A DNA stretch of 64,000 nucleotides from an uncultured Actinomycetota bacterium (GCA_963837285.1 CAWIMS010000005.1:1844437-1908436), one strand, 5' to 3'. Shown: positions 27,299 through 51,182, numbered from the stretch's first letter. Notes: generated from the letters alone by a model not told the origin. Numbers and translations: made by a program.

Positions 27299-27308
27299 GT
27301 CTCCTCCT

Positions 27309-31444: not shown

Positions 31445-31463
31445 GCCCGAAGGGAAGATCTTC

Positions 31464-35385: not shown

Positions 35386-36102
35386 TCAGGCCGTGCGGCT
35401 GCGCACGACCTCTTCGATGATCTGCCGGAGGGCATCGCGGGCGGGGTCGAGAGTGACCCCGGCCATGGCGAGCGCCGCGCCCGCGTCGCTGTCCGGGTCG
35501 TGGAGGATGCCGAGGAGCAGGTGCTCGGTACCGACGTAGTTGTGTCCCAGGCCGACCGCCTCGCTCAACGCCTTGGCCAGGGCCGCCCGGGTCGCCGGCT
35601 CGACCGGGATGACGGTTGGCGCGCCGTCGCCGGTCTCCCGCAGCCCGGAGCGGATTGTCTCGGGATCGCCGCCGAGCCGGGTCACCACCTGCACGGCAAG
35701 CGCCTGCGGATCGGCGAGCAGGCCGAGCAACAGGTCGGCCGGGCGGACCGCCGGATGCTCCAGCCGTCGGGCGTGCTCGGCGGCGTCGGTCAGCGCGTTA
35801 CGCGCACGCGGCGCGAGCCCCTTGAACGCGCCGCCGCGCACGACGTCGTCCATGGTCAGCGCGGATTGCCGCGGCGTGTACCGCTGTTGTGCGGCTTGCC
35901 GGCTCATCCCCAGATGGGTACCGATGTCCGACCACGAATAGCCCTCGGCCCGGGCCTGCTCGACGAAGTAGCCGATGAGGCGGTCACCGAGGCGGCCCAG
36001 TTCGGCGCTCAGCTCCTCCGCCGTCGTGATTTTGGTCAGCGGGTCGGTCCCATCGCGGTCGACCCGTTCGATCAGCGTGTACAACTCCACCGGGCTCGTC
36101 AT
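35386..36102 (-). CDS. Clp N-terminal (Clp_N repeat) domain protein with N-terminal HTH-like segment
   Basis: GYSWSDIGTHLGMSRQAAQQRY (HTH-like), followed by two Clp_N-type repeats (...HPAVRPADLLLGLL..., ...HNYVGTEHLLLGIL...). Confidence 0.75.
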   Translation of the reverse strand: MTSPVELYTLIERVDRDGTDPLTKITTAEELSAELGRLGDRLIGYFVEQARAEGYSWSDIGTHLGMSRQAAQQRYTPRQSALTMDDVVRGGAFKGLAPRARNALTDAAEHARRLEHPAVRPADLLLGLLADPQALAVQVVTRLGGDPETIRSGLRETGDGAPTVIPVEPATRAALAKALSEAVGLGHNYVGTEHLLLGILHDPDSDAGAALAMAGVTLDPARDALRQIIEEVVRSRTA

Positions 36103-36162: not shown

Positions 36163-37011
36163 CTATCCAGGGCGGCGGTGCGCCGTGACGAGATAGCTCT
36201 GCGGCCACCGGTTGTCGCCGCGCGGCACCGGCGGCCAGGTCCACCGGCCGAAGTGGGCACCGTCGTCGCCGTACCGGGTGACCTGCGCGTCCCAGCCGTG
36301 CCCCGCCAGCAGTGCCTCCGGGTCGTCCGTGCCGAACCGCATGGGCATTCCCGCGTCGGTGAACTTGCGCAGCCACGGCGCGAACGGCGGGAAGGTCAGC
36401 AACGAGCGCCCGACGAAATCGGTCAGCAGCGCGTCGCCGGCATGGGCCAGCCCGCCGATGGCGCCCAGGAGCTGGTCGATCTGCCCGGCGTCGAGGTACA
36501 TCAGCAGTCCCTCGACCAGCCAGACCGTCGTGCTGTCGCGCAGGCCGGCCGCCACCAGCGCGGCGGCCCAGCCGCCGGCCAGGTCAGCGCGGACCGGGGT
36601 CCGGTCGACCTTGGCCTGTGCGCCGAGGCCCGCGAGCCGGTCTTCCTTGACGGCCAGCACCTCGGGCCGGTCGAGCTCGAAGAACCGCACCCCGGCCGGC
36701 AGTGGCAGCCGGAACGCGCGAGCGTCCATGCCGGCGGCCAGCATGACGACCTGGCGGGCATGCCCGTCGGCGAGCAACCGCAGCAGCGCGTCGTCGAAGA
36801 AGCGGGTACGGATCGGAACCGTCATGCCGGTGCCGTCGCCGGGTGCCGACATGCTGGTGAGCAGGCGTTCCCCTTCCGGCCCCGCCAGCGCGGCGGCGTA
36901 CGGGTCCTGGAACAGCGCGTCCGGCCGGGCCGTCTCACGGGCCCGCTCGGCGGCCATCCACTGCGCGGTGAGCGACACCGGATGGGCGGGGGGAACGTCT
37001 ACATCGGACAC
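36163..37011 (-). CDS. SAM-dependent O-methyltransferase, leucine-carboxyl-methyltransferase (LCM/TIGR00027-like) family
   Basis: ORF 36163..37074. GTG 37011 lies 7 nt after the YcaO stop, with GAGG upstream. SLTAQWMAAERARE...DPYA...IRTRFFDD...VVMLAAGMDARAFRL. Confidence 0.75.
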   Translation of the reverse strand: MSDVDVPPAHPVSLTAQWMAAERARETARPDALFQDPYAAALAGPEGERLLTSMSAPGDGTGMTVPIRTRFFDDALLRLLADGHARQVVMLAAGMDARAFRLPLPAGVRFFELDRPEVLAVKEDRLAGLGAQAKVDRTPVRADLAGGWAAALVAAGLRDSTTVWLVEGLLMYLDAGQIDQLLGAIGGLAHAGDALLTDFVGRSLLTFPPFAPWLRKFTDAGMPMRFGTDDPEALLAGHGWDAQVTRYGDDGAHFGRWTWPPVPRGDNRWPQSYLVTAHRRPG

Positions 37012-37018
37012 AATCGCC

Positions 37019-38926
37019 TCACGGGAACGGATGCGGGTGCGGGTTGATGTCGGCCACGGTGAGCGTACGGTCACGGTACCCGAGCCGGTGTGGCACCTCG
37101 AACAGGCGGGGTAGGCCGTCCACCCTCCGGGCGCGGTGCCCGAACGTCATCGGCAGGGTGCCGGGGACGATCGCCTTCACGCAGGCGAAGCCTCCGGCGC
37201 GGTGTTCGGGTGTGGTCTGGTCCACCACGACGACGTCGAGGCCGTCACCGAGATAGCGGCCGAGCAGTTCGTCCAGGTCGGCGCGCAGGTCGTCGTGGTG
37301 GGGCCAGTGCCAGGTGCCGGCGAAGTCGCCGAACGGGCGGGGCTCGGCGTCGAGCAGGAAGTCGAAGCGCCCGAAGGCCTCCGGGTGGTTGTAGAGCAGC
37401 GCATGGTCGTCCATGACGCGTACCAGGTCGGGATCGCGCACCATGGCGGCGGCCCGGTCCCGGTCACGCGGGTAGGTCAGCAGCCGGTACTCGATCATCA
37501 TCGCCAGTTCCTGCAACGCGTTGACCACGCCGCGTTCCGGCGTGAGCGCGGAACCGCCGGCGCACATGGCCTTCGGGCGGTCCGGGTCGCCGGACCCGTC
37601 GACGGCCATCACCCAGAAGGACGGGATGCGCTGTTCAAGGGTGTCCGTGAAGACGAGGACCTGATAGCCGGTGTGATGGCGGATCCGTTCGACGATCAGG
37701 CCGATCCGCGGGCCGGCGGCGCTGGCCGGGTCGAGTCGCGGCACCGGCATCCGGGCGTACCAGGTCATCAGGAACGCGTCGCGTTCGGCGATCTCGACCA
37801 GGCCGTGGATGACGGCCTCCTCCAGGCAGCTGCCGAGGGCGCAGCCGTTGGAGATCTCGTAGACGAACGGCCGGTGCTCGGGCGGCCCACCGCCGTGCCG
37901 CCGGTGCAGGCCGTAGTACACATAGGACTCCGGTACCAGTACCGGCCGGCCGCTACCGAAGGAATAGCCCCACACCCAGTTCATGACCAGCTCGTCGTGG
38001 TAGGGCTGGAAGGGGAAGTCCGCGGTCGCGTACCGGTCCGGCGGGTACAGGCCGAGGGCTACCGGGTCGAGCGCCTCGCCGACCAGCTCCCGATGGCAGC
38101 CCCGCACGACGGTACGCCGGCCACCGGGCCGGACGCCGCCCATCCGTTCGAGCGCCTCGGCGATCGCGGTGAGCCGGGAGCTGCCGAAGTCGAGGGTACG
38201 CCCGTAGCCTTCCTCGCTGGCCGCGCCGCCCGCCCGGTGTGCCGTCACCATCGGCAGCAGGTAGTCGCCGCTGGGCCGCAGTGGATTGAGCAGCCCGGTC
38301 TCGGCGTCGACGTAGGAGGCGAGCAGCTCCGGTTCGACCGCGGCGAGATCCCGGATCCGTACCGTCGACGGCGACACCTTCGGCAGCGACCGTGGCACCA
38401 CCACCGCGGCGGCGGGGGTGTCGGCGGGCAGGCCGCCGCAGGCCGGGCAATCGGGGTCGGGCAGGAACCGGTGTACCCGTACCCCCAGCGTGGCGAGGTC
38501 GAGCATGACCGCCGCGCCGTCGACGCGGCTGGTCCGCCCGGCGGACCATGCGGCGACCTCACGTGCCACGATCGCGGCGGCGGCGTCGACAGCCAGCGGG
38601 CCGAGCAGCGGAGACACTGTCCGGGGCAGGGCGTCCTCGTGCGCTGACGGCAGGTCGCCGAACCCACGGGCGGCGGCGCGGCGGCGGCGCAGGCACGCCC
38701 TGCACCCGGCGACCCCGGGCCGGACCAGCGGCCCGATCACGATCCGGTCCAGCTCGCCCTGGACCGGCAGCCACGGCGTGCGGTCAGCGGTCGCCCACAC
38801 CGCTTCGGTACCCGCGACCGTGTCGCCCGCCACGATGGTAAGTGGGCGCTCTGTCCACTCCGGACGGAGAACGGGCACGAGTGCGTCGTAGAGGTCTCCC
38901 GAGCCGACGACGGTCACTGTGGTCAT
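37019..38926 (-). CDS. Fused E1-like/YcaO cyclodehydratase (PatD/TruD-type)
   Basis: 635 aa. The N-terminal half has Cys pairs (GCRACLRRR, DPDCPACGG). YcaO motifs SSRLTAIAEALERMGG and GLVEIAERDAFLMTWY. ATGA overlap with the upstream gene at 38923-38926. Confidence 0.9.
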   Translation of the reverse strand: MTTVTVVGSGDLYDALVPVLRPEWTERPLTIVAGDTVAGTEAVWATADRTPWLPVQGELDRIVIGPLVRPGVAGCRACLRRRRAAARGFGDLPSAHEDALPRTVSPLLGPLAVDAAAAIVAREVAAWSAGRTSRVDGAAVMLDLATLGVRVHRFLPDPDCPACGGLPADTPAAAVVVPRSLPKVSPSTVRIRDLAAVEPELLASYVDAETGLLNPLRPSGDYLLPMVTAHRAGGAASEEGYGRTLDFGSSRLTAIAEALERMGGVRPGGRRTVVRGCHRELVGEALDPVALGLYPPDRYATADFPFQPYHDELVMNWVWGYSFGSGRPVLVPESYVYYGLHRRHGGGPPEHRPFVYEISNGCALGSCLEEAVIHGLVEIAERDAFLMTWYARMPVPRLDPASAAGPRIGLIVERIRHHTGYQVLVFTDTLEQRIPSFWVMAVDGSGDPDRPKAMCAGGSALTPERGVVNALQELAMMIEYRLLTYPRDRDRAAAMVRDPDLVRVMDDHALLYNHPEAFGRFDFLLDAEPRPFGDFAGTWHWPHHDDLRADLDELLGRYLGDGLDVVVVDQTTPEHRAGGFACVKAIVPGTLPMTFGHRARRVDGLPRLFEVPHRLGYRDRTLTVADINPHPHPFP

Positions 38927-39924
38927 GCCGGTCCCTCCTCATCGCACAGGTCCGCGGCGGCGAGGGCGGCCAGGCCACGCAGGAACCGTTCCTCCGCAAG
39001 CCCGATGCCGAGCCGGTTGCACAGCAGGTGGGCGCAGTTGTCGATGGCGAACGCGGTGGCCGGCAACGGCATCCCGGTGGACGCTGCCAGGCCGGTCGGC
39101 GTGAACCGGTCAGACGCCTCCAGGCCCGCGAGGGTGCGCCACAGGTCGTCGACCGACCGGCACCACCCGTCCAGAAACGTGTCGCCGGTCGTCCCGGGAC
39201 CGCGTACCCGGCGGGCCACGGCCGCGAGAGTGGCGCGGCGCTTCTGGTACACCGCCGCGTCCCGGGCGGTGTCGTCGGCCGTGGACACGGCCTGTGCCCA
39301 GATCCGGCGGGTCCGGTCGAGCCGCCGCGCGAGGTGGGCCGGGTCGGACTCGCCAGCCAGCAGCGCCCCGAAGGCGAGCACCCGGCGGCGCTCGGCGGGC
39401 ACCTTCCGGCCGACCAGGTCCAGCGCGAGGTCGCTGGAGCGCTCGAAGTGCCGTTCGACGGCCGCGAGCGGGGCGCCGGTGCCGTACTTGTGGTGCTCGG
39501 GTCGGTACTCGAAAACCCGCAGAGAGTTGTTGGACTGCAAGGGAAGGTCGGGCTCGCCCGGCTCGGCGCGGTCAAGCACGCGAGCCTGCCGCGCGTATTC
39601 CTCGGGTGACAGCGTGTCGGCCGACGGGTGCACAGCGAAGAACCGGTGGCTGTGCCGACGAGCAGCGGTGCGAACATCGGTCGCACCGCTGCCGTCGTGC
39701 GGCAGCAGGCGCAGTCGAATGTGCGGACCGCCCCGCCAGTACCGCAGGAAGAAATACCGGGCGAGCAGGTTACCCTCCCGCAACTCGGCTACCAGCGGAA
39801 GCACCAGCTCGCGAAGCAACAGATCCGACGAACCCTGGTAGAACAGATGAACGCTCAGCCAGCCACGCCGGGATGGTGCGTCGGCTGGATCCGGCCGCAC
39901 CGCCGTCGGGATGTCTGGTCGCAC
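38923..39924 (-). CDS. LanB C-terminal-like protein (thiopeptide-type bacteriocin biosynthesis domain): glutamate-elimination enzyme or [4+2] pyridine synthase
   Basis: WLSVHLFYQGSSDLLLRELVLPLVAELREGNLLARYFFLRYWRGGPHIRLRL is the signature N-terminal block of the Lant_dehydr_C family. GTG start lies 34 nt after the precursor stop. Confidence 0.8.
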   Translation of the reverse strand: MRPDIPTAVRPDPADAPSRRGWLSVHLFYQGSSDLLLRELVLPLVAELREGNLLARYFFLRYWRGGPHIRLRLLPHDGSGATDVRTAARRHSHRFFAVHPSADTLSPEEYARQARVLDRAEPGEPDLPLQSNNSLRVFEYRPEHHKYGTGAPLAAVERHFERSSDLALDLVGRKVPAERRRVLAFGALLAGESDPAHLARRLDRTRRIWAQAVSTADDTARDAAVYQKRRATLAAVARRVRGPGTTGDTFLDGWCRSVDDLWRTLAGLEASDRFTPTGLAASTGMPLPATAFAIDNCAHLLCNRLGIGLAEERFLRGLAALAAADLCDEEGPA

Positions 39925-39958
39925 GTTTCTATCCGGGTTCCGGTGCCGTTCGGATCAA

Positions 39959-40129
39959 TCAGCAGCAGTAGCAGCTGCAACACAACAGGGGCGGCAGCAC
40001 GAAGGAGGCACCCACCTCGGGCATGCTGTAGCCAGCGGTCAGAGAGTCTTCCCAGGAATCACCTTCGACGCCGAGTGGTTCCAGCGTGAGGTCTTCCAGG
40101 GCGTCGGCGAACGCCTTGTCAACGGGCAT
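39959..40129 (-). CDS. Thiopeptide-type RiPP precursor peptide (56 aa): MPVDKAFADALEDLTLEPLGVEGDSWEDSLTAGYSMPEVGA / SFVLPPLLCCSCYCC
   Basis: This is the internal ATG 40129 of track ORF 39959..40309, preceded by GAGGAGGG with a 7-nt spacer. Acidic leader and a Cys-rich C-terminus (6 Cys, 2 Ser in the last 15 aa). It is first in the minus-strand RiPP operon. Confidence 0.85.
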   Translation of the reverse strand: MPVDKAFADALEDLTLEPLGVEGDSWEDSLTAGYSMPEVGASFVLPPLLCCSCYCC

Positions 40130-40203
40130 GGTTGCACCCTCCTCAATCAGAGGCGGCGGCCGCGGAGTGCGGCCGATGACAATTGCCGGAGGGTACTGAC
40201 GCA

Positions 40204-40220
40204 ATTGACGAGGGGTCAAT
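40204..40220. promoter_or_regulatory. Palindrome ATTGAC-N5-GTCAAT in the divergent RiPP promoter region
   Basis: Read directly from the sequence. It lies in the 332-nt lower-GC intergenic region between the precursor (-) and the ThiF-like gene (+). Confidence 0.25.
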
Positions 40221-40461
40221 GGAATCACTTGACCGACGACTCTTGGTGGCGAATGAACACATGCCGCTCCGGACGTGCGGTTATGTTCAACAAATGGCAT
40301 GGTCCACAAAGGACTCTGCCCATAAGGTCTGCCCGATAGGGAAAGACGGTCGCAACCATTCGAACAAGCTTCGAGCCAGGGACAACACGGCAGGGTTGAC
40401 GTCAGCGGATCTGGTAGCCCATATTCGGCCGTGCTGGCGATTCGGCATTCCTGGAGTTCCC

Positions 40462-41424
40462 GTGAAACCGAGACTGGCCGACGACGTCCATTTCCTGCCC
40501 CGCCCCGATGGAGTATTCGTTCTGCTCACCTCGCAGCCGGATCGCGGTTTCGGGATCAGCGGCCGGCATGCGTACGAGTGGCTGACCCGCATCGCCCCGT
40601 TCCTCACCGGTGAACATGACCTGGACGCGCTCCTGGGTGGCGTCGGCGAGCAGCGGCGGGAGCGCGTCCGGGCGCTGATCGCGAGACTCCATAGTGGAGG
40701 CGCCCTTCGCGACGCGTCCGGTGACCTCCCGCACAGCCTGCCCGGGGAGGTCCGCGACCGGTACGCCCCGGTGATCGGCTTCATCGGCCGCGGTGCCGAC
40801 TCGCCGGAGCACCGGTTCCAGCGCTACCGGGAGTGCCACCCGGTCGTCGTCGGCTCCGGGCTGCTGGTCGCGCCGTTGGTGCAGGCGCTGCTGACGACCG
40901 GGGTGACACAGGTACAGGTGATCCGGACCGCCGACCAGCCAATCGACCTGGACCGGATGCGCGACTGCCTGGCGCTGGTGGGGCCCGACGCGTGGGAGCG
41001 GGTACGGGTCGGGACCGGGGACCCGACCGGCGCGCTGGCCGCCGCCGGCGGCGTCCTCCACGTCAGCGACGTCCCCGACCCGGACCGCAGGGACCGGCTG
41101 GTCGCGTCGGGTGCCGCACGCGGACGGATCTTCGGCTCGGCCACCGTCGACGGTGACGTGGCGCTGATCGGCCCGGTGGGCGACGCCGCACGCCTGAGCC
41201 CCGGCGCCGCGTGCCCGAGCCCCGGCCCGGAAACGGCCGCGTCCCCCACCGGGTCCGTCAGCGACCTCCTCGCGGGTCCGGTGCCCGCGCTCGTCGCCAA
41301 CCACCTCTGCGCGGCGTTCCTCAAGCAGGTCACCGGGCTGCCGAACGACGCGGCGGAGCGGATCGTCGAGCTCGACCTGGAGACGTTGCGCACCCGCGTA
41401 CGACCGGTGGTCACGACGCCATGA
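40462..41424 (+). CDS. Ocin-ThiF-like/E1-like protein (short form; probable leader-binding partner)
   Basis: ORF 40183..41424 with GTG 40462. HRFQRYRECHPVVVGSGLLVAPLVQALLTTGVTQVQVI is paralogous to the N-terminal half of the 47324..49333 product (RFQRYRNSPVLVVGAGAALVTLL). Confidence 0.65.
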   Translation: MKPRLADDVHFLPRPDGVFVLLTSQPDRGFGISGRHAYEWLTRIAPFLTGEHDLDALLGGVGEQRRERVRALIARLHSGGALRDASGDLPHSLPGEVRDRYAPVIGFIGRGADSPEHRFQRYRECHPVVVGSGLLVAPLVQALLTTGVTQVQVIRTADQPIDLDRMRDCLALVGPDAWERVRVGTGDPTGALAAAGGVLHVSDVPDPDRRDRLVASGAARGRIFGSATVDGDVALIGPVGDAARLSPGAACPSPGPETAASPTGSVSDLLAGPVPALVANHLCAAFLKQVTGLPNDAAERIVELDLETLRTRVRPVVTTP

Positions 41425-43001
41425 CCAGCACGGTGGACGGCACGGTGGACGGCACGGCGACCGGGTACTGGCACGACGCGATCTACGACCCACTCGGCAC
41501 GCTGCTCGACGGCGTCGAGGACCGCAACGTCAAAGAAGGCGATCCCGGCGAGCCGCTGCGGCACAAGACGTACCCTGGCCTGCCCCGCCGGGCGCTGCCA
41601 CCACCCGCGCTGACCTTGTGCACACCGCCGGCCGGGGCGTGGCTCGGCACCTTCCTCTACTACTCCTACGGCGTCCATCGCCACGACCCGGAGCCGGGCA
41701 GTTGGCCGTACCACCGGCTGGTGCCGTCCGCCCGTTGCTTCTTCCCGACCGAGTTCTACCTCGCGCTGGCGCCCGGCCGCGACGACGGTGACGAGGGAGT
41801 GCACTACTACGACCCGATGCACCACACGCTCGTCCGGCTCCGCGACGGCGACCACCGCGGCGTCCTTGCCGACGCCACCGGCGCGGACCTGAGCGGCGCC
41901 GCCGCCGTGGTGGTGCTGTCCGCGCTGTTCTGGAAGACCGCTTTCCGGTACCGCGACTACGCCTACCGGCTGTGCGCCCAGGAGGCGGGCCTGGTCGCCG
42001 GCAACGTCCTGCTGGTGGCCGAGGCGCTGGGGATGTCGGCGCACGTCCACTTCCTCTTCCGGGACCGGTCGGTGCACCGGCTGCTGGGCCTGCGGGAACC
42101 GGCCGAGAACGCCTTCGCCGTCGTCGCCCTGTACCCGTGTGACGCGAGCGGGCGCGGCCGGCCGCTGCGGCCCGCGCCGGCAGGTGCCGGCGACGCCGCC
42201 GAGGCCCTGCCGGACCTGCGCACCGTCCACGGTGAACCGTCCGGGTACGACGCCGATGCGGTGCCGGTGTTGACCCGCGTCAGCCGGGCCGCCCTCATGC
42301 CGACGGCCGCCTCGCCGGTCGGCGGCGTGGGGATCCGGCCCGCGCGACCGCCCGCGACGACCCCGGTCCTGACGGCACCGGTCGACCCGCCCGCCGGCAC
42401 GGACGCCGACCTGGCTGGCGCGCTGCGGGCCCGCGACTCCGGCCCCGGCTACCTGGCCTTCCGGCCGGCCGACGTGCCGGCGGAAGCCGTGTGGCGCATC
42501 GTCCGCGACGTGACCCGCCCGTACCCGTGCGATGTCGCCGCACCCTCCGGCGAGCCCGTGACCGACTGCCACCTGGTGGTCCGGTCGGCCACCGGCATCG
42601 CGGCGGGCGTCTACCGGGTGACGTCCGGGGTTGCCCTGGAGGCCCACCGCATCGGGCCGGTCGACGAGGTACTGCACGACATCGCCCTGGCCGACTTCAC
42701 GATGTCCACGGTGGACTTCGCCGGTGCCCCGCTGACCGCGTTCGTGTCCGTACCTCGCCGTGCCGCGGACGTTCTCGGAGCGCGTGGCTTCCGGATCCTC
42801 AGCCAGGCCGCCGGCATCGCCGCTCAGCGGATCTGTGTGGCGAGCGCGTACAGCGGGCTGGTGGCGCGGGTCCACAACGGATACTCCGCGGTGGCGGCGG
42901 AGCGGTGGCTCGGGCTGGCAGACGGCGACACGGTGCTGTTCCAGATCGCGATCGGCGCCGCGCGTCCCGCTCCGGCGCTCAAGCTCCCGGTGGTGTTCTG
43001 A
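41421..43001 (+). CDS. SagB-type FMN dehydrogenase (two nitroreductase-like halves), copy 1
   Basis: ATG 41421 forms an ATGA overlap with the upstream stop. HRLVPSARCFFPTEFYLAL...GVHYYDP and FRYRDYAYRLCAQEAGLVAGNVLLVAEALGM. Confidence 0.8.
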   Translation: MTSTVDGTVDGTATGYWHDAIYDPLGTLLDGVEDRNVKEGDPGEPLRHKTYPGLPRRALPPPALTLCTPPAGAWLGTFLYYSYGVHRHDPEPGSWPYHRLVPSARCFFPTEFYLALAPGRDDGDEGVHYYDPMHHTLVRLRDGDHRGVLADATGADLSGAAAVVVLSALFWKTAFRYRDYAYRLCAQEAGLVAGNVLLVAEALGMSAHVHFLFRDRSVHRLLGLREPAENAFAVVALYPCDASGRGRPLRPAPAGAGDAAEALPDLRTVHGEPSGYDADAVPVLTRVSRAALMPTAASPVGGVGIRPARPPATTPVLTAPVDPPAGTDADLAGALRARDSGPGYLAFRPADVPAEAVWRIVRDVTRPYPCDVAAPSGEPVTDCHLVVRSATGIAAGVYRVTSGVALEAHRIGPVDEVLHDIALADFTMSTVDFAGAPLTAFVSVPRRAADVLGARGFRILSQAAGIAAQRICVASAYSGLVARVHNGYSAVAAERWLGLADGDTVLFQIAIGAARPAPALKLPVVF

Positions 43002-43002
43002 G

Positions 43003-45642: not shown

Positions 45643-47327
45643 TGGACGGCTTGAGCGCGGCCCGCCGGTACCTGCGCGACTGCGGCCACGCCGAAGTCAG
45701 CGGCGCCGTCGACGAGGCGACCGTGCCGCCGCCGTTCCCGACGCTGCGCGGGGCGCCGCGGATACCGTTGCCGTACCCGATCGGCCAGGGCATCGCCGTC
45801 GACGCGGCGGGCAGCCCGGTATCGTTGTCCCGCGCGGTCCTGGGCGACCTCGCCGGGTACCTTCTCGGGCTGACCCGCATCCACTGGCTGCCCGACGCCG
45901 AGCTGGAGACGCTGAGCCGCACGGGCCTGCTGTCCGCGGACGCGGACAGCTCGGTGGTGCCCGGGCGGCCGACCCCGTCCGGGGGCCGCCGCTACCCGTC
46001 CGAGCTCTACCTGGCCAGCCGGGTGCTGCCGGGCCTGCCCGCCGGGCTGTACCGCTACGCGCCGGCCCGGCACGCGCTGGAACGGTTGCGGGCCACCGAC
46101 ACCCGTGCCGACGTGCTCGGGTCGCTGTCCACGCCGCCGCACGGCACACCGGACGTGATCCTGTTCCTCACCAGCGTGTTCTGGCGCACCGCGGTCAGGT
46201 ACGGCGAGTACGCCTACCGCCTGCAGGCCCTCGACGCCGGTGCGCTGGCCGGGCATGCCCTCGCCCTCGGAGACGCCGCCGGACTGCACGCGACGATCCA
46301 CCTCGACTTCGCCGACGGGCCGGTCCACGGTCTCCTCCGGGTCGATGCGGCGCGGGAGAACTGCCAGGTGATCGTCACGATGACGGCCGAAGCGGGACCG
46401 GCGGACGGTCCGCCGCCAGCGGGCACCAGCCCGGAGCCTGCGCCTCCGATCGCGCTTCCCGGCCCGGCGCGGGACGTGCTGCCGCTGTCCGCCGCGCTGC
46501 ACGCCGCTTCCGCGCGCGATGCCTCTCTGCGCGATGCCTCTCTGCGCGATGCCTCTCTGCGCACCGCCTCCCCGCACGCCGCCTCCCCGCACGCCGCCTC
46601 CCCGCACGCCGCCTCCGTGCGCGACGCGCCTACGGGCGCCGGCAACGGCGTTGAGGCGTGTGCCGGGCAGAACGCGTCAGGCGGAGTCCGGCTCGCCGGC
46701 CGGCCGGTGCGCGCCGCCGCCGGGATACCGCACCGCTATTCGGCGACGCCGGGATTCCGCCCGGACCCGATCCGTGCCGACGACCTCGCCGCCATCCTCG
46801 CCACCGCGTGCGCCGGTTACGCCGGTGACCTCCCGGACACCACCGGGTACGCCACCCAGGTCCCGCTGTACGTCATCGCCAACCGCGTGACGGGCCTGAC
46901 CGCCGGTGCGTACCGGTACGACCCGGTGTCCGGGCGGCTCGCGGCGGTGCGGACCGGCGATCTGCTCCCCGTACTCGCGCCCGGCCTGACCGTGTCGTAC
47001 CCGGCCGTGTCCGAGGCCGGTGCCGTCGTCGTCGCGGTCGGCGACTACGAGCGCGGCTTCCCGCGGCGCGGGGACCGCTGGTACCGGATGCACACCATCG
47101 GGTGCGGCCTGGTCGCCGAACGCGTCTGCCTGGCGGCGGCGGCCCTGCGGCTCGGATCGCACCTGCGGTGCGACTTCGATCCGGCGGTCGTCGGTCACGT
47201 GCTCGGACTCGACCCGCGGGCGCAGACACCGGTCGCGATGGTCCTTGCCGGGCCGCCACGGCTGCCGCTGCCGCTGCACGTCCCGTTGACGCTGGGTGCC
47301 GTATCCACAAGGGAGGCAGGACGATGA
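45642..47327 (+). CDS. SagB-type FMN dehydrogenase (two nitroreductase-like halves), copy 2, with repeat linker
   Basis: GTG 45642 shares one nt with the upstream TAG (TAGTG). GGRRYPSELYLASRVLPGLPAGLYRYAPARHAL and VRYGEYAYRLQALDAGALAGHALALGDAAGL. The second half contains GAYRYDPVSGRL. Confidence 0.8.
   Translation: MDGLSAARRYLRDCGHAEVSGAVDEATVPPPFPTLRGAPRIPLPYPIGQGIAVDAAGSPVSLSRAVLGDLAGYLLGLTRIHWLPDAELETLSRTGLLSADADSSVVPGRPTPSGGRRYPSELYLASRVLPGLPAGLYRYAPARHALERLRATDTRADVLGSLSTPPHGTPDVILFLTSVFWRTAVRYGEYAYRLQALDAGALAGHALALGDAAGLHATIHLDFADGPVHGLLRVDAARENCQVIVTMTAEAGPADGPPPAGTSPEPAPPIALPGPARDVLPLSAALHAASARDASLRDASLRDASLRTASPHAASPHAASPHAASVRDAPTGAGNGVEACAGQNASGGVRLAGRPVRAAAGIPHRYSATPGFRPDPIRADDLAAILATACAGYAGDLPDTTGYATQVPLYVIANRVTGLTAGAYRYDPVSGRLAAVRTGDLLPVLAPGLTVSYPAVSEAGAVVVAVGDYERGFPRRGDRWYRMHTIGCGLVAERVCLAAAALRLGSHLRCDFDPAVVGHVLGLDPRAQTPVAMVLAGPPRLPLPLHVPLTLGAVSTREAGR
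46515..46619 (+). repeat. Seven in-frame 15-nt tandem units (RDASL x3, RTASP, HAASP x2, HAASV)
   Basis: CGCGATGCCTCTCTG x3, then CGCACCGCCTCCCCG, CACGCCGCCTCCCCG x2 and CACGCCGCCTCCGTG. The array sits between the two halves of dehydrogenase copy 2. Confidence 0.9.
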
Positions 47328-49333
47328 GCGACGCGGCAACCGGGCTCGCCGGGATGCGACCGCACCTGCGCGACGGCGTTCACTGGGTACCGACCGGATC
47401 CGGTGGCGTCCACGCCGTCACCAGCCGCGGACGGTTCACCCTGCCCGGTGGCGACGGCCATCGGTGGGTCACCCGGCTGACGCCCTTCCTCGACGGTACC
47501 CACACCGTCGCCCAACTGACCGCGAGCGTTCCGCCGGAACGCCGGGCGAAGGTCGAGGAGGTCCTGCGCTGGCTGCACCGCCACGGCCTCGTGCGGGACC
47601 TGTCGCGGGAACGCCCGCACACCCTGACCGACGCCGACCAGCGCAGGTACGCCGGCACGCTGCGCTACCTGGCCGAGCACACCGAGGCGGCCGGCCACCG
47701 GTTCCAGCGGTACCGGAACAGCCCGGTACTCGTCGTCGGCGCCGGTGCCGCGCTGGTCACCCTGCTGCGGGCCACCCTCCGCGCCGGTAGCCGGCAGGTG
47801 ACCGTGGTCGACACCGGTGCCGCCGACCGGGACCGGCTCGTCGACGTCGTGTCCGCCGCGGTACGCGTGGACCCGGACCAGATGTGCACGCTGCTCGACG
47901 GCGAGGCCACGCCCGAGCTGGTCGGCGCCGTCGACCTGGTCATGCACGTGGCCGGCCCCGATACGCTGCCGCGCGCCGAGAAGCTGGACGCGCTCTGCGC
48001 CGACCGGGGCGCGGCGCTCTGCCAGGCGGTGATCGCGGACGGCGAGGCGTGGCTCGGCCCGGTCAGCGATCCGGACGATCCGGCTACACAGTGGACGGCG
48101 GCCTGGCGGCGGCTCGGCACCTGGCCTGCCGCCGCACCGTCCCTGGTGGACGATGGAGTCCTTGACCTGCTGGCCGCCCAGCTCGTTCTGCGATGCCTGC
48201 GCCGCCTCACCGGCATCGATGACGCCGCCGGACACACCGTGGTCCGGCTCGACACCGGCACGCTGGGCACCTCGATACACCCGTTCACGCCGCATCCGCT
48301 GGCGGTGCCGGCGACCGCGCAGACTGCCGGCGACTTCTCGCGGCGGATCGCCGAACTTCGCGCCGCGCCTGAGGCGGGCGATGCCGACTTCTCCCGAGCG
48401 GCTTCGTCCCTTGTGGACGAACATACCGGGGTCCTGACGTATCTCGGCGAACGGTCCTTCCAGCAGCTCCCGTTGTGGGTGACGGAGGCAACCGTCACCG
48501 ACCCGCGCGGAGTCGCGGCGACGGTCCACGGCGCCGCCACCGGCTTCACCACCGCCCGGCACCGGGCCGCCCGCCGGGCGCTGGAACTGTACGCCTCGGC
48601 CATGTTCGACCGGCGACGGCTCCTCGCCGCGGACGGCACGGTACCCGATGTGCCGCCCCCGCCCGGTGACGGCTGGCTCCGCGGATGGCGCCTCGACGAC
48701 CGCGGCGAACGGCTCGTTCCGGCGTCCGCCGTCTTCACCACCGCGCCCGGCGGGCCGCACCTGCCGGCCGGCGTGGCATCCGGACCGACCTGGGCGGCCG
48801 CGGTCGAAACCGGCCTCCTGCGCTTGTGCCGGGAACTCACCGTGGCCGACGCGCTCACCGCCGCCGGCCCCTTCCCGGCTGTCGAACTGGACCGGGCCGG
48901 GCTGGACGGGACCGCGCTCGATGAGGCCGGGCAGCGCATGCTCGGCATCCTGCGGCTGTTCCGGGCACCGGTCACGGCGTACGACATCACGGGTGCGCTC
49001 GGCGTGCCCACGTACGCCGTGTACCTGGACGGCCGGCCGGTCGCCTATGCTGCCGGGTGGTCGCCGGCCGACGCGTTACGCGACGGCCTGGAGCAGGCGG
49101 TTCTCGCCTGCCAGTCCGACCTGGCCGGCGAGCCCGACTACCGTCCACCGCCCGTACCCGGTCTGCTCAACCGCGCCCGAGAGGGCCGCCCGTCTCCACC
49201 ACCGGCCGGGTACGCGCGGGTCGTCGACGTCCTGGCGGCGCGGGTCGGCCCGCCGGTCGCCGTCCCGCTCGACCACGATCCCGCGCTGGCCACCGCACTC
49301 CCGTTCGCCGTCCGGGTCGTCGCCGGCCCGTGA
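47324..49333 (+). CDS. Ocin-ThiF-like protein, long form (E1-like N-terminal half, YcaO-like but motif-degenerate C-terminal half)
   Basis: ATG 47324 forms an ATGA overlap. 669 aa. Rossmann-like VLVVGAGAALVTLL. The C-terminal half follows the YcaO pattern (GAATGFTTARHRAARRALELYAS, GPTWAAAVETGLLRLCRE, ITGALGVPTYAVYL) but lacks the E..ER / ERD acidic motifs. Confidence 0.65.
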   Translation: MSDAATGLAGMRPHLRDGVHWVPTGSGGVHAVTSRGRFTLPGGDGHRWVTRLTPFLDGTHTVAQLTASVPPERRAKVEEVLRWLHRHGLVRDLSRERPHTLTDADQRRYAGTLRYLAEHTEAAGHRFQRYRNSPVLVVGAGAALVTLLRATLRAGSRQVTVVDTGAADRDRLVDVVSAAVRVDPDQMCTLLDGEATPELVGAVDLVMHVAGPDTLPRAEKLDALCADRGAALCQAVIADGEAWLGPVSDPDDPATQWTAAWRRLGTWPAAAPSLVDDGVLDLLAAQLVLRCLRRLTGIDDAAGHTVVRLDTGTLGTSIHPFTPHPLAVPATAQTAGDFSRRIAELRAAPEAGDADFSRAASSLVDEHTGVLTYLGERSFQQLPLWVTEATVTDPRGVAATVHGAATGFTTARHRAARRALELYASAMFDRRRLLAADGTVPDVPPPPGDGWLRGWRLDDRGERLVPASAVFTTAPGGPHLPAGVASGPTWAAAVETGLLRLCRELTVADALTAAGPFPAVELDRAGLDGTALDEAGQRMLGILRLFRAPVTAYDITGALGVPTYAVYLDGRPVAYAAGWSPADALRDGLEQAVLACQSDLAGEPDYRPPPVPGLLNRAREGRPSPPPAGYARVVDVLAARVGPPVAVPLDHDPALATALPFAVRVVAGP

Positions 49334-49353
49334 CCACACCGGAGGACCGACCC

Positions 49354-50454
49354 ATGCAGACACCGACCTGGCGAGCAGTCCACGTGTACTACTACGACGA
49401 GAACAAGGACGACCTGATCCTCGACGCGGTCCGGCCGGTGCTGCGCCGCGTCGCCGAGGACGTGCGGTGCGCGTACTTCGTGCGACACTGGCGGCGCGGG
49501 CCGCACGTGCGGATTCCGGTGCTCGCGACGCCCTCGGCCTTCACGTCGGTGGTCGAGCCCGCCGTCGCCGACATCGTCCGCGGCTACCTCGCGCGGCGAC
49601 CGTCCACGACCGCCCTGCCACCGGAGGCGGTCCTGCTGCCGATGCACGAACGCCTCGCGGAACTGGAGATGGAGACCGGACCGCTGCGCCCGCTCGTGCC
49701 CGACAACAGCGTTCTGTTCACGGAGCACGACCGGCGCCTCGACATGCTCGACGGCGAGGTGGGTTCGGACCTGCTCGCCGAGTTCTACGCCACGACCAAC
49801 GACCTCGCGTTCGCCATGCTGGAGGAGATCCGGTCCGGCCGTACCCGAGAGTTCGTGGGCCTGTCGCTCATGCTCGCGGTCGCCCACGCGTTCGGTGGCG
49901 AACCGGCCATCGAGCGCGGGTTCGTCTCGTTCCGGTCGCATGCCGAGGCGTTCCTGTACGGATCCTCCGACCAGGTGGGGATCCGCGCCCGCTTCGACCG
50001 GGAGTACCTGGCCAACGCCCGGGCGCTGACCGGGCTGGTACGCGCCGTAATGGACACCGTGGACGGCCGGTCCACCGCCGTGCCGTTCGTCACCGAGTGG
50101 GTGGCCGCGTTACGTCCACTCTGGACGGTGTCCGAGTCGCTCGTCGCCTCCGGCCGCCTGCGGCTCACCGCCGGGGTACCGGAAGGCGACAGCGACGCCG
50201 CGGCGGGAAAGCTCGCCGACAGCCCGATACACCGGCTCATGCTCGGCAGTGACACGTTCCGGCGACTCGTCTTCGACGATCCGCAGTTCACGCGGTACCG
50301 CCTGGTGCTCAACTACACGTATCTGCACCTGGCCCGGCTCGGGATCATGGGGTACGGCCGGTACCGCCTGTGCCACCTGGCCGCGAACGCGGTCGAAAAG
50401 GCGCTTGGCGTCGATGCCATACGGATCGTCGAGGAAGCGGCAGGCCGGCGGTAG
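49354..50454 (+). CDS. LanB C-terminal-like protein, second copy (elimination enzyme or [4+2] pyridine synthase)
   Basis: ATG 49354 follows GGAGGA. WRAVHVYYYDENKDDLILDAVRPVLRRVAEDVRCAYFVRHWRRGPHVRIPV. Confidence 0.8.
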   Translation: MQTPTWRAVHVYYYDENKDDLILDAVRPVLRRVAEDVRCAYFVRHWRRGPHVRIPVLATPSAFTSVVEPAVADIVRGYLARRPSTTALPPEAVLLPMHERLAELEMETGPLRPLVPDNSVLFTEHDRRLDMLDGEVGSDLLAEFYATTNDLAFAMLEEIRSGRTREFVGLSLMLAVAHAFGGEPAIERGFVSFRSHAEAFLYGSSDQVGIRARFDREYLANARALTGLVRAVMDTVDGRSTAVPFVTEWVAALRPLWTVSESLVASGRLRLTAGVPEGDSDAAAGKLADSPIHRLMLGSDTFRRLVFDDPQFTRYRLVLNYTYLHLARLGIMGYGRYRLCHLAANAVEKALGVDAIRIVEEAAGRR

Positions 50455-50570
50455 GCCGGTCCTTTCTCGCCATGAGTGGTTGTTCGGTGCCTCGAGTGGC
50501 GTACGCCGTACGAGACCGGATCGTCACAGCGGCCGCCGACTCGGACGTGGCCAGGAAGGGCGACCCGCAG

Positions 50571-51182
50571 ATGGACAACAGCTGCGCCAACCGCATCGCC
50601 CTGACCTTCGACGACGGAACCTCGTCCTATCGGCCCAAGCTGCTGCAGGTGCTGCGGGACAAGCAGGTGCACGCCACGTTCTTCGACAACGGGGTACGGG
50701 TGCAGGCCAACCCGCAGATCGCCCGGTTCCAGGTGGCCGAGGGTCACGTCGAGCTCAACCACACTGTCCTACATGTACACATGGACGAGATGACCCTGGC
50801 GGCCAACCGGGACGAGGTGCTGCGTAACGCGGCAACCCTGGCCGCCGCCGGTGCGCCGTTGACGTTCCACGGCATCCGCCCGCCGTTCGGTGGTTCCGAC
50901 CCCGACGTGCAGCGGCTGCTGATCGAGATGGGGTACACGTACTTCCTGAACCGCATCGACGCCGAGGACTGGCGGCCGGACAAGAGCGCCGCCGCGATTC
51001 GCGACGACATCATCGCGCAGCTCACTCCTGGCGTGATCATCGGACTGCACGACGGCCCGATCGACACCCCGGCCGGCGCGGCCACCGTCGAGGCCGTCGG
51101 CCAGATCATCGACCGGGCCCGCGAACTCGGGTACTGCTTCGGCGTCGTCGACCGCAGCGGACACGTCGTGGCGGACCGGTAG
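50571..51182 (+). CDS. NodB-homology polysaccharide-deacetylase-family hydrolase
   Basis: RIALTFDDG, FFDNG, ELNHTVLHVH. ATG 50571 follows AGGAAGGG. The alternative ATG 50472 would add ~33 codons that are poor in G/C-ending codons. Confidence 0.7.
   Translation: MDNSCANRIALTFDDGTSSYRPKLLQVLRDKQVHATFFDNGVRVQANPQIARFQVAEGHVELNHTVLHVHMDEMTLAANRDEVLRNAATLAAAGAPLTFHGIRPPFGGSDPDVQRLLIEMGYTYFLNRIDAEDWRPDKSAAAIRDDIIAQLTPGVIIGLHDGPIDTPAGAATVEAVGQIIDRARELGYCFGVVDRSGHVVADR

What the first reader, a model, noticed from the sequence alone, without database searches (positions are those of the whole stretch)
36163..51182. Thiopeptide/pyritide-class RiPP cluster in two divergent, translationally coupled operons
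Seen: the minus operon runs precursor (40129->39959), LanB-C-like (GTG 39924), fused E1-YcaO (ATGA overlap 38923-38926), then an LCM-type methyltransferase (GTG 7 nt after the stop). The plus operon runs ThiF-like (40462), SagB-type dehydrogenase (ATGA 41421-41424), split LanB N-terminal dehydratase (1-nt gap), a second dehydrogenase (TAGTG), long ThiF-like/YcaO-like (ATGA 47324-47327), a second LanB-C-like, then NodB hydrolase. Established: split LanB, an extra LanB-C-like [4+2] enzyme, YcaO/E1 and FMN dehydrogenase together form the core thiopeptide set (Tbt/Tcl/Pbt systems). Inference: the product is a pyridine-bridged, thiazole-bearing macrocycle. No radical SAM, P450 or TfuA lies inside the operons, so tailoring is minimal.
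Basis: partly seen in the sequence, partly recalled or inferred. Interest (0 to 1): 0.85.

Follow-up and report, generated by a model that had tools for sequence, protein, structure and literature searches.

The report
New thiopeptide antibiotic gene cluster
This is an intact gene cluster for an undescribed thiopeptide, a ribosomal peptide closed into a ring by a pyridine and carrying thiazoles; it comes from an uncultured soil actinobacterium, is related to the thiomuracin/GE2270 antibiotics, and has a ring made mostly of unmodified hydrophobic residues, which makes it a useful but not surprising new member of a well-known class.

Summary
Ten genes in two divergent, tightly coupled operons (36163-50454) encode a complete thiopeptide pathway:
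- a 56-aa precursor (leader ...SLTAGYSMPEVGA, core SFVLPPLLCCSCYCC);
- a fused E1-like/YcaO cyclodehydratase;
- a PbtF/TbtF-like protein with a leader-binding domain (RRE);
- two SagB-type dehydrogenases;
- a TbtB-like glutamylating dehydratase and its elimination partner;
- a pyridine synthase scoring above NCBI's TbtD/PbtD equivalog cut-off (447 vs 325 bits; 44% identical to TbtD);
- a second, short RRE protein;
- an LCM-type methyltransferase.

The methyltransferase is conserved directly after the YcaO gene in the two relatives where that flank could be read. The NodB gene is not conserved and probably lies outside the cluster.

The precursor meets the thiomuracin/GE37468 family model. It keeps Ser1, Cys9-Cys10-Ser11-Cys12 but has no Cys at positions 2-8. 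The predicted product is therefore a 29-membered pyridine macrocycle with only two ring thiazoles and a thiazole/Tyr tail, probably methyl-esterified ([M+H]+ 1493.51).

Relatives with this leader occur only in soil MAGs and metagenomes. No held paper contains the core sequence. It is a thiopeptide, not a pyritide.

Verdict: new member of a known kind, with moderate interest.

The parts
36163..37011 (-). LCM/TIGR00027-type SAM-dependent methyltransferase (282 aa). Predicted C-terminal carboxyl O-methyltransferase (inferred).
   Evidence: Pfam LCM 1e-44; TIGR00027 202 bits (cut-off 94). GTG starts 7 nt after the YcaO stop. An orthologue lies directly after the YcaO gene in L085 (72% id) and L086 (62% id).
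37019..38926 (-). Fused E1-like/YcaO cyclodehydratase (635 aa), TbtG/PbtG-type. It has no RRE of its own and ends in PHPHPFP.
   Evidence: TIGR03604 339 bits plus TIGR03882 139 bits. Aligns to TruD/LynD from about LynD residue 231 onward. C-terminal PxPxP-type motif seen in the translation.
38923..39924 (-). LanB C-terminal-like protein (333 aa); most likely the TbtC-type glutamate-elimination partner of the split dehydratase.
   Evidence: Lant_dehydr_C 1e-36; TIGR03891 80 bits (cut-off 48); only 79 bits on the pyridine-synthase model, whose cut-off is 325. In collinear clusters its homologue sits between the LanB-N and TbtD-type genes.
39959..40129 (-). Precursor peptide (56 aa): leader MPVDKAFADALEDLTLEPLGVEGDSWEDSLTAGYSMPEVGA, core SFVLPPLLCCSCYCC.
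   Evidence: NF033399 thiomuracin/GE37468 family, 35 bits (cut-off 29). GAGGAGG ribosome-binding site. Seven homologues share the leader, Ser1 and CCSC.
40130..40461 (.). Divergent intergenic (promoter) region.
   Evidence: 332 bp between the two start codons. The only promoter-like match in or beside the two operons is on the + strand at 40396-40425 (TTGACG-18-CATATT).
40462..41424 (+). Short F-like protein (320 aa): RRE plus Rossmann-like domain, without the C-terminal half of full-length F proteins.
   Evidence: TIGR03693 positions 13-253. Residues 8-83 match the PbtF RRE, PDB 8t19. 33% identical to residues 11-325 of the long F protein. A short form ending at the same point is found in 21 loci. 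The closest four representatives are 322-339 aa; most others are 600-720 aa.
41421..43001 (+). SagB-type FMN dehydrogenase 1 (526 aa, two nitroreductase-fold domains), 'E-type' clade.
   Evidence: TIGR03605 90 bits. Matches PDB 3eo7 and McbC, with R-Y at the McbC K201-Y202 position. Clade analysis and motifs.
43003..45642 (+). Split LanB N-terminal (glutamyl-tRNA-dependent glutamylation) dehydratase (879 aa), TbtB orthologue.
   Evidence: Lant_dehydr_N 5e-29. Full-length match to PDB 6ec7, E 7e-88, query residues 4-875. That entry's molecule name is generic; identifying it as TbtB rests on my own knowledge.
45642..47327 (+). SagB-type FMN dehydrogenase 2 (561 aa), 'G-type' clade, with a tandem-repeat linker.
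   Evidence: TIGR03605 147 bits. PDB 3eo7/McbC alignment with the PSGG..YP and R-Y motifs. Two 15-bp arrays at 46514-46616.
47324..49333 (+). Full-length F protein (669 aa, TbtF/PbtF-like): N-terminal RRE, Rossmann-like domain, and a diverged YcaO-like C-terminal half that is probably non-catalytic.
   Evidence: TIGR03693 130 bits. Residues 15-92 match the PbtF RRE, PDB 8t19, E 3e-10. Pfam YcaO 38.7 bits over residues 450-590. Only E 0.7 against the cluster's own YcaO, and no PxPxP end.
49351..50454 (+). Pyridine synthase (367 aa), TbtD/PbtD equivalog; catalyses the formal [4+2] cycloaddition and leader elimination.
   Evidence: NF045556 447 bits (cut-off 325). PDB TbtD 5wa3 E 3e-66 and PbtD E 2e-50. 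44% identical to TbtD.
50571..51182 (+). NodB-type polysaccharide deacetylase (203 aa from ATG 50571; in-frame alternative starts lie upstream). Probably NOT part of the cluster.
   Evidence: Pfam Polysacc_deac_1 1e-25. 116-nt gap after the pyridine synthase gene. No homologue in any related locus.

Best explanation
Region 36163-50454 is an intact biosynthetic gene cluster for an undescribed thiopeptide of the pyridine-centred thiomuracin/GE2270 lineage.

Proposed pathway (enzyme roles inferred by homology; no product has been observed):
1. The 56-aa precursor is bound through its leader by the RRE of the long F protein (47324-49333), and possibly also by the short F-like protein (40462-41424).
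2. The fused E1-like/YcaO enzyme (37019-38926) cyclodehydrates Cys9, 10, 12, 14 and 15 to thiazolines.
3. The two SagB-type flavoenzymes oxidise the thiazolines to thiazoles.
4. The TbtB-like enzyme glutamylates Ser1 and Ser11, and the small LanB-C-like protein (38923-39924) eliminates glutamate to give two dehydroalanines.
5. The TbtD-type synthase (49351-50454) joins Dha1 and Dha11 in a formal [4+2] cycloaddition. Water and the leader are lost, giving a trisubstituted pyridine that closes a 29-membered ring.
6. The LCM-type methyltransferase most likely methyl-esterifies the C-terminal (thiazole) carboxylate.

Predicted product: pyridine ring closed through Phe-Val-Leu-Pro-Pro-Leu-Leu-Thz-Thz, with a tail Thz-Tyr-Thz-Thz-COOMe. 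Calculated [M+H]+ is 1493.512 for the ester and 1479.496 for the free acid.
For: - **Families and operon structure:** every enzyme family reaches its curated cut-off where one applies, and all junctions show operon coupling.
- **Orthology to characterised enzymes:** TbtD (PDB 5wa3, E 3e-66, 44% id), TbtB (6ec7, E 7e-88, full length) and the PbtF RRE (8t19, E 3e-10).
- **Precursor:** it hits the thiomuracin/GE37468 family model above cut-off. In eight family members the leader, Ser1 and the CCSC motif are invariant while ring positions 2-8 vary. This is the pattern expected if Ser1, the later Ser and the flanking thiazoles are what the pyridine synthase needs.
- **YcaO roles:** the fused E1-like/YcaO enzyme ends in PHPHPFP, as azoline-forming YcaOs do, while the long F protein's YcaO-like half does not.
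- **Synteny:** all ten genes recur at 62-77% identity in a public soil MAG (L082/L085). The same order recurs in four more loci; L001 lacks the second dehydrogenase, and the methyltransferase flank could be read only in L085 and L086.
- **Methyltransferase:** it is conserved in L085 and L086. The L001 core (SIPPIPPLCCCSCCC) has no Tyr, so Tyr O-methylation cannot be its conserved role.
- **Mass formula:** it reproduces m/z 1366.26, which I recall as the reported value for thiomuracin GZ.
Against: - No product has been observed; every chemical step is inferred from homology.
- Thiomuracin-type dehydratases and pyridine synthases are reported to need multiple azoles (PMC9247985). This core lacks thiazoles at positions 2, 4 and 6, so processing rules may differ.
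- The roles of the extra RRE protein and of the second dehydrogenase are unexplained.
- The methyltransferase's nearest solved relatives (ML2640, Rv0731c) have no known substrate, so the methylation site is a guess.
- Whether the C-terminal Cys15 is cyclised is unknown.
- No resistance or export gene was identified next to the cluster.
Confidence: 0.85

Rival explanations
1. It is the same cluster, but the short RRE protein and first dehydrogenase (40462-43001) are not redundant thiazole-synthase parts. They would install an additional, so far undescribed modification, or act on a defined subset of residues, so the product would differ from the simple prediction.
For: - The pair is translationally coupled.
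- It is conserved in about 21 loci alongside the canonical dehydrogenase / F protein / YcaO set.
- The short form is rare among about 700 F-protein relatives.
- The two dehydrogenases belong to deeply separated clades with different FMN-region motifs, SARCFFP.E versus PSGG..YP.E.
Against: - E-type dehydrogenases are the only dehydrogenase in loci whose precursor core matches cyclothiazomycin (my own knowledge) and in Saccharopolyspora-type loci, so they are ordinary azoline oxidases there.
- L001 lacks the G-type enzyme altogether and still has six Cys to process.
- Duplicated dehydrogenases are already known in the berninamycin cluster (PMC9290621).
- Both copies keep the R-Y dyad.
Confidence: 0.2
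2. The methyltransferase acts elsewhere: on the Tyr13 hydroxyl, a free Cys thiol or a nitrogen, or on an unrelated cellular substrate, rather than on the C-terminal carboxylate.
For: The TIGR00027/LCM family is functionally heterogeneous, and its solved members have no assigned substrate. The tail contains both Tyr and Cys.
Against: - The gene follows the YcaO gene directly (7 nt here) in three clusters, including one whose core has no Tyr.
- The family's founding activities, as I recall them, are carboxyl methylations: PP2A Leu carboxyl methylation and TcmP.
Confidence: 0.25
3. The cluster is silent or decayed, or makes a linear azole-containing peptide (goadsporin-like) without macrocyclisation.
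For: Most relatives are known only from metagenomes, so no product has ever been seen. The ring interior lacks the azoles that characterised Tbt enzymes prefer (PMC9247985).
Against: - All ten ORFs are intact, with coupled starts.
- The pyridine synthase scores well above the equivalog cut-off.
- Ser1 and CCSC are invariant across eight precursors.
- An identical core with one leader change occurs in an independent metagenome.
Confidence: 0.05

Closest known systems
Thiomuracin (tbt/tpd), GE2270 (pbt) and GE37468 (get) clusters: 29-membered, pyridine-centred thiopeptides that target EF-Tu
   Same: - Orthologous TbtB (E 7e-88), TbtD/PbtD (447 bits, 44% id) and PbtF RRE.
- The precursor meets the GetA family model.
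- Leader end ...SLTAG(H/Y)xM(T/P)EVGA|S, 15-residue core, and Ser1/Ser11 spacing with Cys9-Cys10-Ser11-Cys12, as in SCNCFCYICCSCSSA (thiomuracin core quoted from my own knowledge).
   Different: - Positions 2-8 (FVLPPLL) have no Cys, so only two ring thiazoles are expected instead of five, and position 2 stays unmodified.
- None of the ring residues of thiomuracin is kept.
- There are no radical SAM or P450 tailoring genes.
- There is an extra short RRE protein and a second dehydrogenase.
- There is an LCM methyltransferase.
- The genes are arranged in divergent operons.
- No EF-Tu gene lies in the window.
Lactazole A (laz cluster, Streptomyces lactacystinaeus)
   Same: Low Cys/Ser/Thr content in the ring, an unmodified residue at position 2 and almost no tailoring. 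These features are described as unusual among thiopeptides (PMC7210931).
   Different: - Lactazole has a 32-membered ring.
- It uses LazF, a fusion of dehydrogenase and elimination domain, and a split LazD/LazE cyclodehydratase.
- Here the enzymes are separate and Tbt-type, and the Ser1/Ser11 spacing predicts a 29-membered ring.
Cyclothiazomycin-type clusters (core SNCTSTGTPASCCSCCCC, seen in L052, L061, L070, L075; the compound name rests on my own knowledge of that core)
   Same: - Unmodified residue at position 2.
- Cys-rich CCSC(C)CC tail.
- Their sole dehydrogenase belongs to the same 'E-type' clade.
- Pyridine synthase about 41-43% identical.
   Different: - Ser1/Ser14 spacing.
- Extra Ser/Thr residues used for further dehydrations and, as I recall, for a thioether.
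- One full-length F protein and one dehydrogenase.
- No LCM methyltransferase.
Uncharacterised Streptomyces/Kitasatospora/Streptacidiphilus/Catenulispora clade with core S(F/Y)CCAPPPNCCNCSCS (L004-L019, L036)
   Same: It is the next-closest pyridine synthase clade (44-50% id). It shares the short F-like protein plus E-type dehydrogenase in addition to the G-type dehydrogenase, long F protein and YcaO. The precursor is encoded divergently upstream.
   Different: The leader and core differ, with Ser1/Ser14 spacing. There is no LCM methyltransferase. The gene order is collinear on one strand apart from the precursor. No product has been described for it either.
Pyritides (mro cluster, Micromonospora rosaria)
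   Same: A pyridine-closed macrocycle whose ring residues are mostly unmodified; split LanB plus a [4+2] enzyme.
   Different: Pyritide precursors have no Cys and their clusters lack azole-forming genes (PMC9247985). Here a YcaO, an F protein, two dehydrogenases and five core Cys are present.
Berninamycin cluster (ber)
   Same: A precedent for two McbC/SagB-type dehydrogenases (berE1/E2) and two genes annotated as YcaO cyclodehydratases (berG1/G2) in one thiopeptide cluster (PMC9290621).
   Different: As I recall, berninamycin is oxazole-rich with a 35-membered ring, which gives an obvious reason for two sets. The core here has only Cys to cyclise.

Membership tests
Thiopeptide RiPP class | Precursor peptide with a leader and a Cys/Ser-containing core | tested here: met
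   56-aa ORF with a ribosome-binding site; NF033399 35 bits against a cut-off of 29.
Thiopeptide RiPP class | ATP-dependent YcaO cyclodehydratase with an RRE-bearing partner (F protein) | tested here: met
   TIGR03604 339 bits plus TIGR03882. The long F protein matches the PbtF RRE and TIGR03693, the latter below its full-length cut-off.
Thiopeptide RiPP class | FMN-dependent azoline dehydrogenase | tested here: met
   Two SagB-domain proteins above the TIGR03605 cut-off; R-Y dyad at the McbC K201-Y202 position.
Thiopeptide RiPP class | Split LanB dehydratase (glutamylation domain plus a separate elimination domain) | tested here: met
   Full-length TbtB match, E 7e-88. A Lant_dehydr_C/TIGR03891 protein that fails the pyridine-synthase cut-off.
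Thiopeptide RiPP class | Dedicated [4+2] pyridine synthase | tested here: met
   NF045556 447 bits against a cut-off of 325; TbtD and PbtD PDB matches.
Thiopeptide RiPP class | Mature product contains azoles, Dha-derived residues and a six-membered nitrogen heterocycle | not testable with these tools
   Needs expression and MS/NMR. The class definition is taken from PMC9247985.
Thiomuracin/GE2270/GE37468 subfamily | Precursor of the GetA/TbtA family with Ser1/Ser11 spacing and the Cys9-Cys10-Ser11-Cys12 motif | tested here: met
   Model hit above cut-off; core SFVLPPLLCCSCYCC read directly.
Thiomuracin/GE2270/GE37468 subfamily | Thiazoles from Cys2, Cys4 and Cys6, and the conserved ring residues that (from my own knowledge) contact EF-Tu | tested here: not met
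   Positions 2-8 are FVLPPLL, with no Cys and no Asn3. The ring interior is hypervariable within this clade.
Thiomuracin/GE2270/GE37468 subfamily | Radical SAM or P450 tailoring genes, and a resistant EF-Tu copy near the cluster | tested here: not met
   None lies in the operons. There is no EF-Tu hit anywhere in the window.
Pyritides | Precursor without Cys, and a cluster without azol(in)e-forming genes | tested here: not met
   Five core Cys; a YcaO, an F protein and dehydrogenases are present. The definition is from PMC9247985.
Lactazole-like thiopeptides | LazF-type fusion of dehydrogenase and glutamate-elimination domain | tested here: not met
   The dehydrogenases and the elimination protein are separate genes here. 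A LazF-like fusion does occur in a neighbouring cluster on the L001 contig.

The most novel reading that the evidence does not exclude
This clade may be a natural 'minimal-azole' branch of the Tbt-type machinery. Only Ser1 and the CCSC motif are fixed, and a 6-7-residue azole-free, Pro-rich ring interior is free to vary, so the ring could display different sequences and hit a target other than EF-Tu. The conserved short RRE protein and E-type flavoenzyme may carry out site-specific or new chemistry not seen in characterised thiopeptide pathways.
Probability: 0.2. Interest if true: 0.6.

Novelty: new member of a known kind. Interest (0 to 1): 0.4.

Why it matters
Thiopeptides are potent inhibitors of protein synthesis, and engineering them is limited because characterised Tbt-type enzymes need several azoles in the substrate (PMC9247985). 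This cluster is a natural Tbt-type pathway whose ring interior carries no azoles and varies freely among relatives. Its enzymes could therefore be more permissive scaffolding tools. Its product would have an unmodified hydrophobic ring stretch that I did not find in the held literature. Its ring keeps none of thiomuracin's ring residues, and no resistant EF-Tu gene lies nearby. It also comes from an uncultured soil actinobacterial lineage, so the compound is reachable only by synthesis or heterologous expression. None of this overturns current understanding: it extends a well-mapped class.

Tried and rejected
- **Source genome:** an exact-sequence look-up of the pyridine synthase and of its 100%-identical database entry P0001 found no contig on record. 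The window's genome is not among the GTDB representative genomes scanned.
- **Literature:** searches for core fragments PPLLCCSC and FCCAPPP returned nothing. The thiopeptide census (Schwalen 2018) and the thiomuracin substrate-specificity paper (Zhang 2016) are not held, so I could not check their precursor lists. A search for 'carboxyl methyltransferase' plus 'thiopeptide' gave nothing relevant.
- **A second active YcaO?** I considered that the long F protein's YcaO-like half might form a thioamide or amidine. I rejected this as unlikely: the Pfam hit is only 38.7 bits, BLAST against the cluster's own YcaO gives E 0.7, there is no PxPxP end, and no TfuA gene is present.
- **One dehydrogenase degenerate?** Both keep the R-Y dyad, and each clade is the sole dehydrogenase in other clusters, so this was not supported.
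- **Cluster boundary:** NodB, the Clp_N protein, the DUF11 protein and the pentapeptide-repeat/DinB protein have no counterpart at related loci, so I treat them as outside. The SARP regulator is left undecided.
- **Other scans:** Rfam and tRNA scans of the window found nothing. The terminator scan gave fewer hits than shuffled sequence.
- **Not attempted:** dN/dS (relatives are too diverged, 62-77% aa identity) and structure prediction (homologues from the fetched loci cannot be submitted as an alignment).

Full report
**Observation**

The window is high-GC DNA (about 66-76% G+C). Third-position GC analysis and ORF listing give one gene per stretch across 36163-51182.

Minus operon:
- Precursor ATG 40129, with GAGGAGG 7 nt upstream, to stop 39959.
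- GTG 39924 starts the next gene.
- ATGA overlap at 38923-38926.
- The methyltransferase GTG (37011) lies 7 nt after the YcaO stop.

Plus operon:
- GTG 40462, preceded by GGAG.
- ATGA overlap at 41421-41424.
- A 1-nt gap at 43002.
- TAGTG at 45640-45644.
- ATGA overlap at 47324-47327.
- GGAGGA and then ATG 49351.

The 332-bp intergenic region holds the only sigma-70-like match in or beside the two operons, on the + strand at 40396-40425 (the scan's one other match lies downstream at 51935-51964).

**Identity of the genes**

Pfam and NCBIfam scans and sequence searches of the PDB place each product as follows.

| Coordinates | Strand | Size | Assignment | Key evidence |
|---|---|---|---|---|
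| 36163-37011 | - | 282 aa | LCM/TIGR00027 methyltransferase | Pfam LCM 1e-44; 202 bits |
| 37019-38926 | - | 635 aa | Fused E1-like/YcaO cyclodehydratase | TIGR03882 + TIGR03604 (339 bits; cut-off 219) |
| 38923-39924 | - | 333 aa | Lant_dehydr_C/TIGR03891 protein | Fails the pyridine-synthase model (79 vs 325 bits) |
| 39959-40129 | - | 56 aa | Precursor peptide | NF033399 35 bits (cut-off 29) |
| 40462-41424 | + | 320 aa | Short F-like protein | First ~250 positions of the ocin-ThiF-like (F protein) model only |
| 41421-43001 | + | 526 aa | SagB-domain flavoprotein, two nitroreductase folds | TIGR03605 90 bits |
| 43003-45642 | + | 879 aa | TbtB-type dehydratase | Full-length match to 6ec7, E 7e-88 |
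| 45642-47327 | + | 561 aa | SagB-domain flavoprotein, two nitroreductase folds | TIGR03605 147 bits |
| 47324-49333 | + | 669 aa | Long F protein | Residues 15-92 match the solved PbtF RRE (8t19, E 3e-10) |
| 49351-50454 | + | 367 aa | Pyridine synthase | NF045556 447 bits (cut-off 325); TbtD 5wa3 E 3e-66, PbtD 2e-50; 44% id to TbtD |

Further details:
- The YcaO enzyme aligns to TruD/LynD only from about LynD residue 231, so it has no RRE of its own. It ends in PHPHPFP, the proline-rich end I recall as typical of azoline-forming YcaOs.
- In collinear relatives the homologue of the 333-aa protein sits between the LanB-N and TbtD-type genes. It is therefore most likely the TbtC-type elimination partner.
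- The C-terminal half of the long F protein is a weak YcaO-like domain: Pfam 38.7 bits, but E 0.7 against the cluster's own YcaO and no PxPxP end.

**The precursor**

The sequence is MPVDKAFADALEDLTLEPLGVEGDSWEDSLTAGYSMPEVGA|SFVLPPLLCCSCYCC. It meets the 'thiomuracin/GE37468 family thiazolyl RiPP peptide' model.

Set against the thiomuracin core SCNCFCYICCSCSSA (quoted from my own knowledge), it keeps the length, Ser1 and Cys9-Cys10-Ser11-Cys12. It replaces positions 2-8 with FVLPPLL.

**Relatives**

- The pyridine synthase has one 100%-identical database entry on an unnamed 3.04-Mb NCBI/ENA contig. The source genome is not among the GTDB representatives.
- The closest locus is contig MNDW01000183.1 of MAG 'Actinobacteria bacterium 13_2_20CM_2_72_6' (L082/L085). 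It has the same divergent layout, and all ten genes are 62-77% identical, including the methyltransferase directly after the YcaO gene. Its core is SDILPPLLCCSCYCC.
- MAG MFD02840.bin.1.283 (L001/L086) has the same layout and methyltransferase, with core SIPPIPPLCCCSCCC. It lacks the second dehydrogenase.
- Two further metagenome loci (L002, L084) carry a collinear version, with all their genes read on one strand.
- A search of 5.8 billion proteins with the precursor found only four metagenomic peptides. One has an identical core.
- Across eight family members the leader, Ser1 and CCSC are invariant, while the ring interior is hypervariable.
- No held paper contains the core strings.

**Cluster limits**

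- The methyltransferase is in. It is coupled to the YcaO gene here and conserved after it in the two relatives whose flank could be read.
- NodB (50571-51182), the Clp_N protein (35386-36102), the DUF11 protein and the pentapeptide-repeat/DinB protein have no counterparts at any related locus. I treat them as outside the cluster.
- A SARP-type regulator at 53108-55939 may or may not belong. A BTAD-family regulator also lies near L002.
- No EF-Tu gene is present in the window.

**The non-standard part**

- In the 80-odd loci fetched, most TbtD-type clusters have one full-length F protein and one dehydrogenase.
- This clade, and the next clade out (about 17 Streptomyces, Kitasatospora, Streptacidiphilus and Catenulispora genomes with the undescribed core S(F/Y)CCAPPPNCCNCSCS), have an additional short F-like protein followed by a dehydrogenase.
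- The short protein has an RRE (PbtF match). It is 33% identical to residues 11-325 of the long F protein and ends where the long protein's C-terminal half begins.
- The short form ends at the same point in all 21 loci that carry it.
- Among about 700 relatives in 1.84 billion representative proteins, the four closest are 322-339 aa, and most of the others listed are 600-720 aa.
- A neighbour-joining tree splits the dehydrogenases into two deep clades with distinct motifs, SARCFFP.E versus PSGG..YP.E. Each clade is the sole dehydrogenase in some other cluster type, and both window copies keep R-Y at the McbC K201-Y202 position.
- Both are therefore probably active azoline oxidases. The simplest reading is a merger of two thiazole-synthase modules, with redundancy or division of labour.
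- Duplicated dehydrogenases have a precedent in the berninamycin cluster (PMC9290621).
- A distinct function for the extra pair cannot be excluded.

**Mechanism and product (inferred)**

1. The leader is bound by the RRE protein(s).
2. The YcaO enzyme cyclodehydrates the five Cys, and the dehydrogenases oxidise the rings to thiazoles.
3. Ser1 and Ser11 are glutamylated and eliminated to dehydroalanine.
4. TbtD-type [4+2] cycloaddition follows, with loss of water and the leader.

The Ser1/Ser11 spacing gives a 29-membered ring, as in thiomuracin. Because L001's core has no Tyr yet keeps the methyltransferase, the conserved methylation target is most likely the C-terminal carboxylate. This fits the carboxyl-methylating founders of the LCM family as I recall them.

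Calculated [M+H]+ values are 1479.496 (acid) and 1493.512 (methyl ester). The same formula gives 1366.260 for thiomuracin GZ, the value I recall as reported.

**Comparison with known systems**

- It works like, and is a member of, the thiopeptide class. All five enzymatic hallmarks and the precursor test positive; the product itself is untestable here.
- Within the class it belongs to the TbtD/PbtD lineage. It fails the features that define the EF-Tu-binding thiomuracin/GE2270 compounds: Cys2/4/6, the ring residues, the tailoring genes and a resistant tuf gene.
- Its low-azole ring with an unmodified residue at position 2 resembles lactazole, for which these features are called unusual (PMC7210931). 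The enzymes, however, are not Laz-type.
- It is not a pyritide, because pyritide clusters lack Cys and azole-forming genes (PMC9247985).

**Verdict**

This is a real, intact, well-supported thiopeptide cluster with an unreported core, from an uncultured soil actinobacterial lineage. I rate it a new member of a known kind. Thiopeptide clusters are numerous, so it is not surprising, and interest is moderate (0.4). The azole-poor, hypervariable ring made by Tbt-type enzymes and the conserved extra RRE/dehydrogenase pair are worth an experiment.

Noticed in passing
window 4241-14531 (- strand): A 949-aa ORF (4241-7090) carries only a Lant_dehydr_N domain. It lies next to a P450 (6871-8214), a 452-aa ORF with no Pfam hit (8890-10248) and an NRPS C-A-MT module with a TubC_N docking domain (9957-14531). 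It may be a stand-alone LanB-N or PEARL-like enzyme in a non-ribosomal context.
   Followed up: no
window 25564-33119: Type II polyketide genes: two ketosynthase-like genes at 27605-30171, a cyclase, two ketoreductases, a SnoaL-like protein and a Trp-halogenase-like flavoenzyme at 31464-33119. They lie directly upstream of the thiopeptide cluster, so the window spans parts of at least three biosynthetic regions.
   Followed up: partly
window 46514-46616: Two perfect in-frame 15-bp tandem arrays (RDASL x3.3 and AASPH x3.5) lie in the linker between the two nitroreductase domains of the second dehydrogenase. This stretch is absent from the closest orthologue in L082.
   Followed up: partly
L004-L019 and L036, precursor at about 3000-3800 (- strand): About 17 Streptomyces, Kitasatospora, Streptacidiphilus and Catenulispora genomes encode a precursor with core S(F/Y)CCAPPPNCCNCSCS next to a TbtD-type cluster that has the same extra short-F/dehydrogenase pair. 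The core string was not found in the held literature.
   Followed up: partly
L001 14462-21116: The MAG contig carrying the related cluster has a second thiopeptide gene set 3 kb downstream: Lant_dehydr_N, a 584-aa protein, a YcaO, and a fusion of Lant_dehydr_C with a nitroreductase. That fusion resembles lactazole's LazF.
   Followed up: no
L087 6695-22022: A related metagenomic cluster (YcaO 57% id; precursor core SCGCCSPAACCCSCAW) has a glycosyltransferase inserted between the precursor and the LanB-C gene. A sugar epimerase/dehydratase, a radical SAM gene, a carbamoyltransferase and a hybrid PKS-NRPS follow. It may encode a glycosylated thiopeptide.
   Followed up: no
window 51918-52784 and 35386-36102: A pentapeptide-repeat/DinB_2 fusion protein and a protein with two Clp_N domains flank the cluster. 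Pentapeptide-repeat proteins protect targets in some antibiotic producers, but neither gene is conserved at related loci.
   Followed up: partly
window 42001-50000: The plus operon is richer in G+C (73-76%) than the window average of about 66-71%.
   Followed up: no
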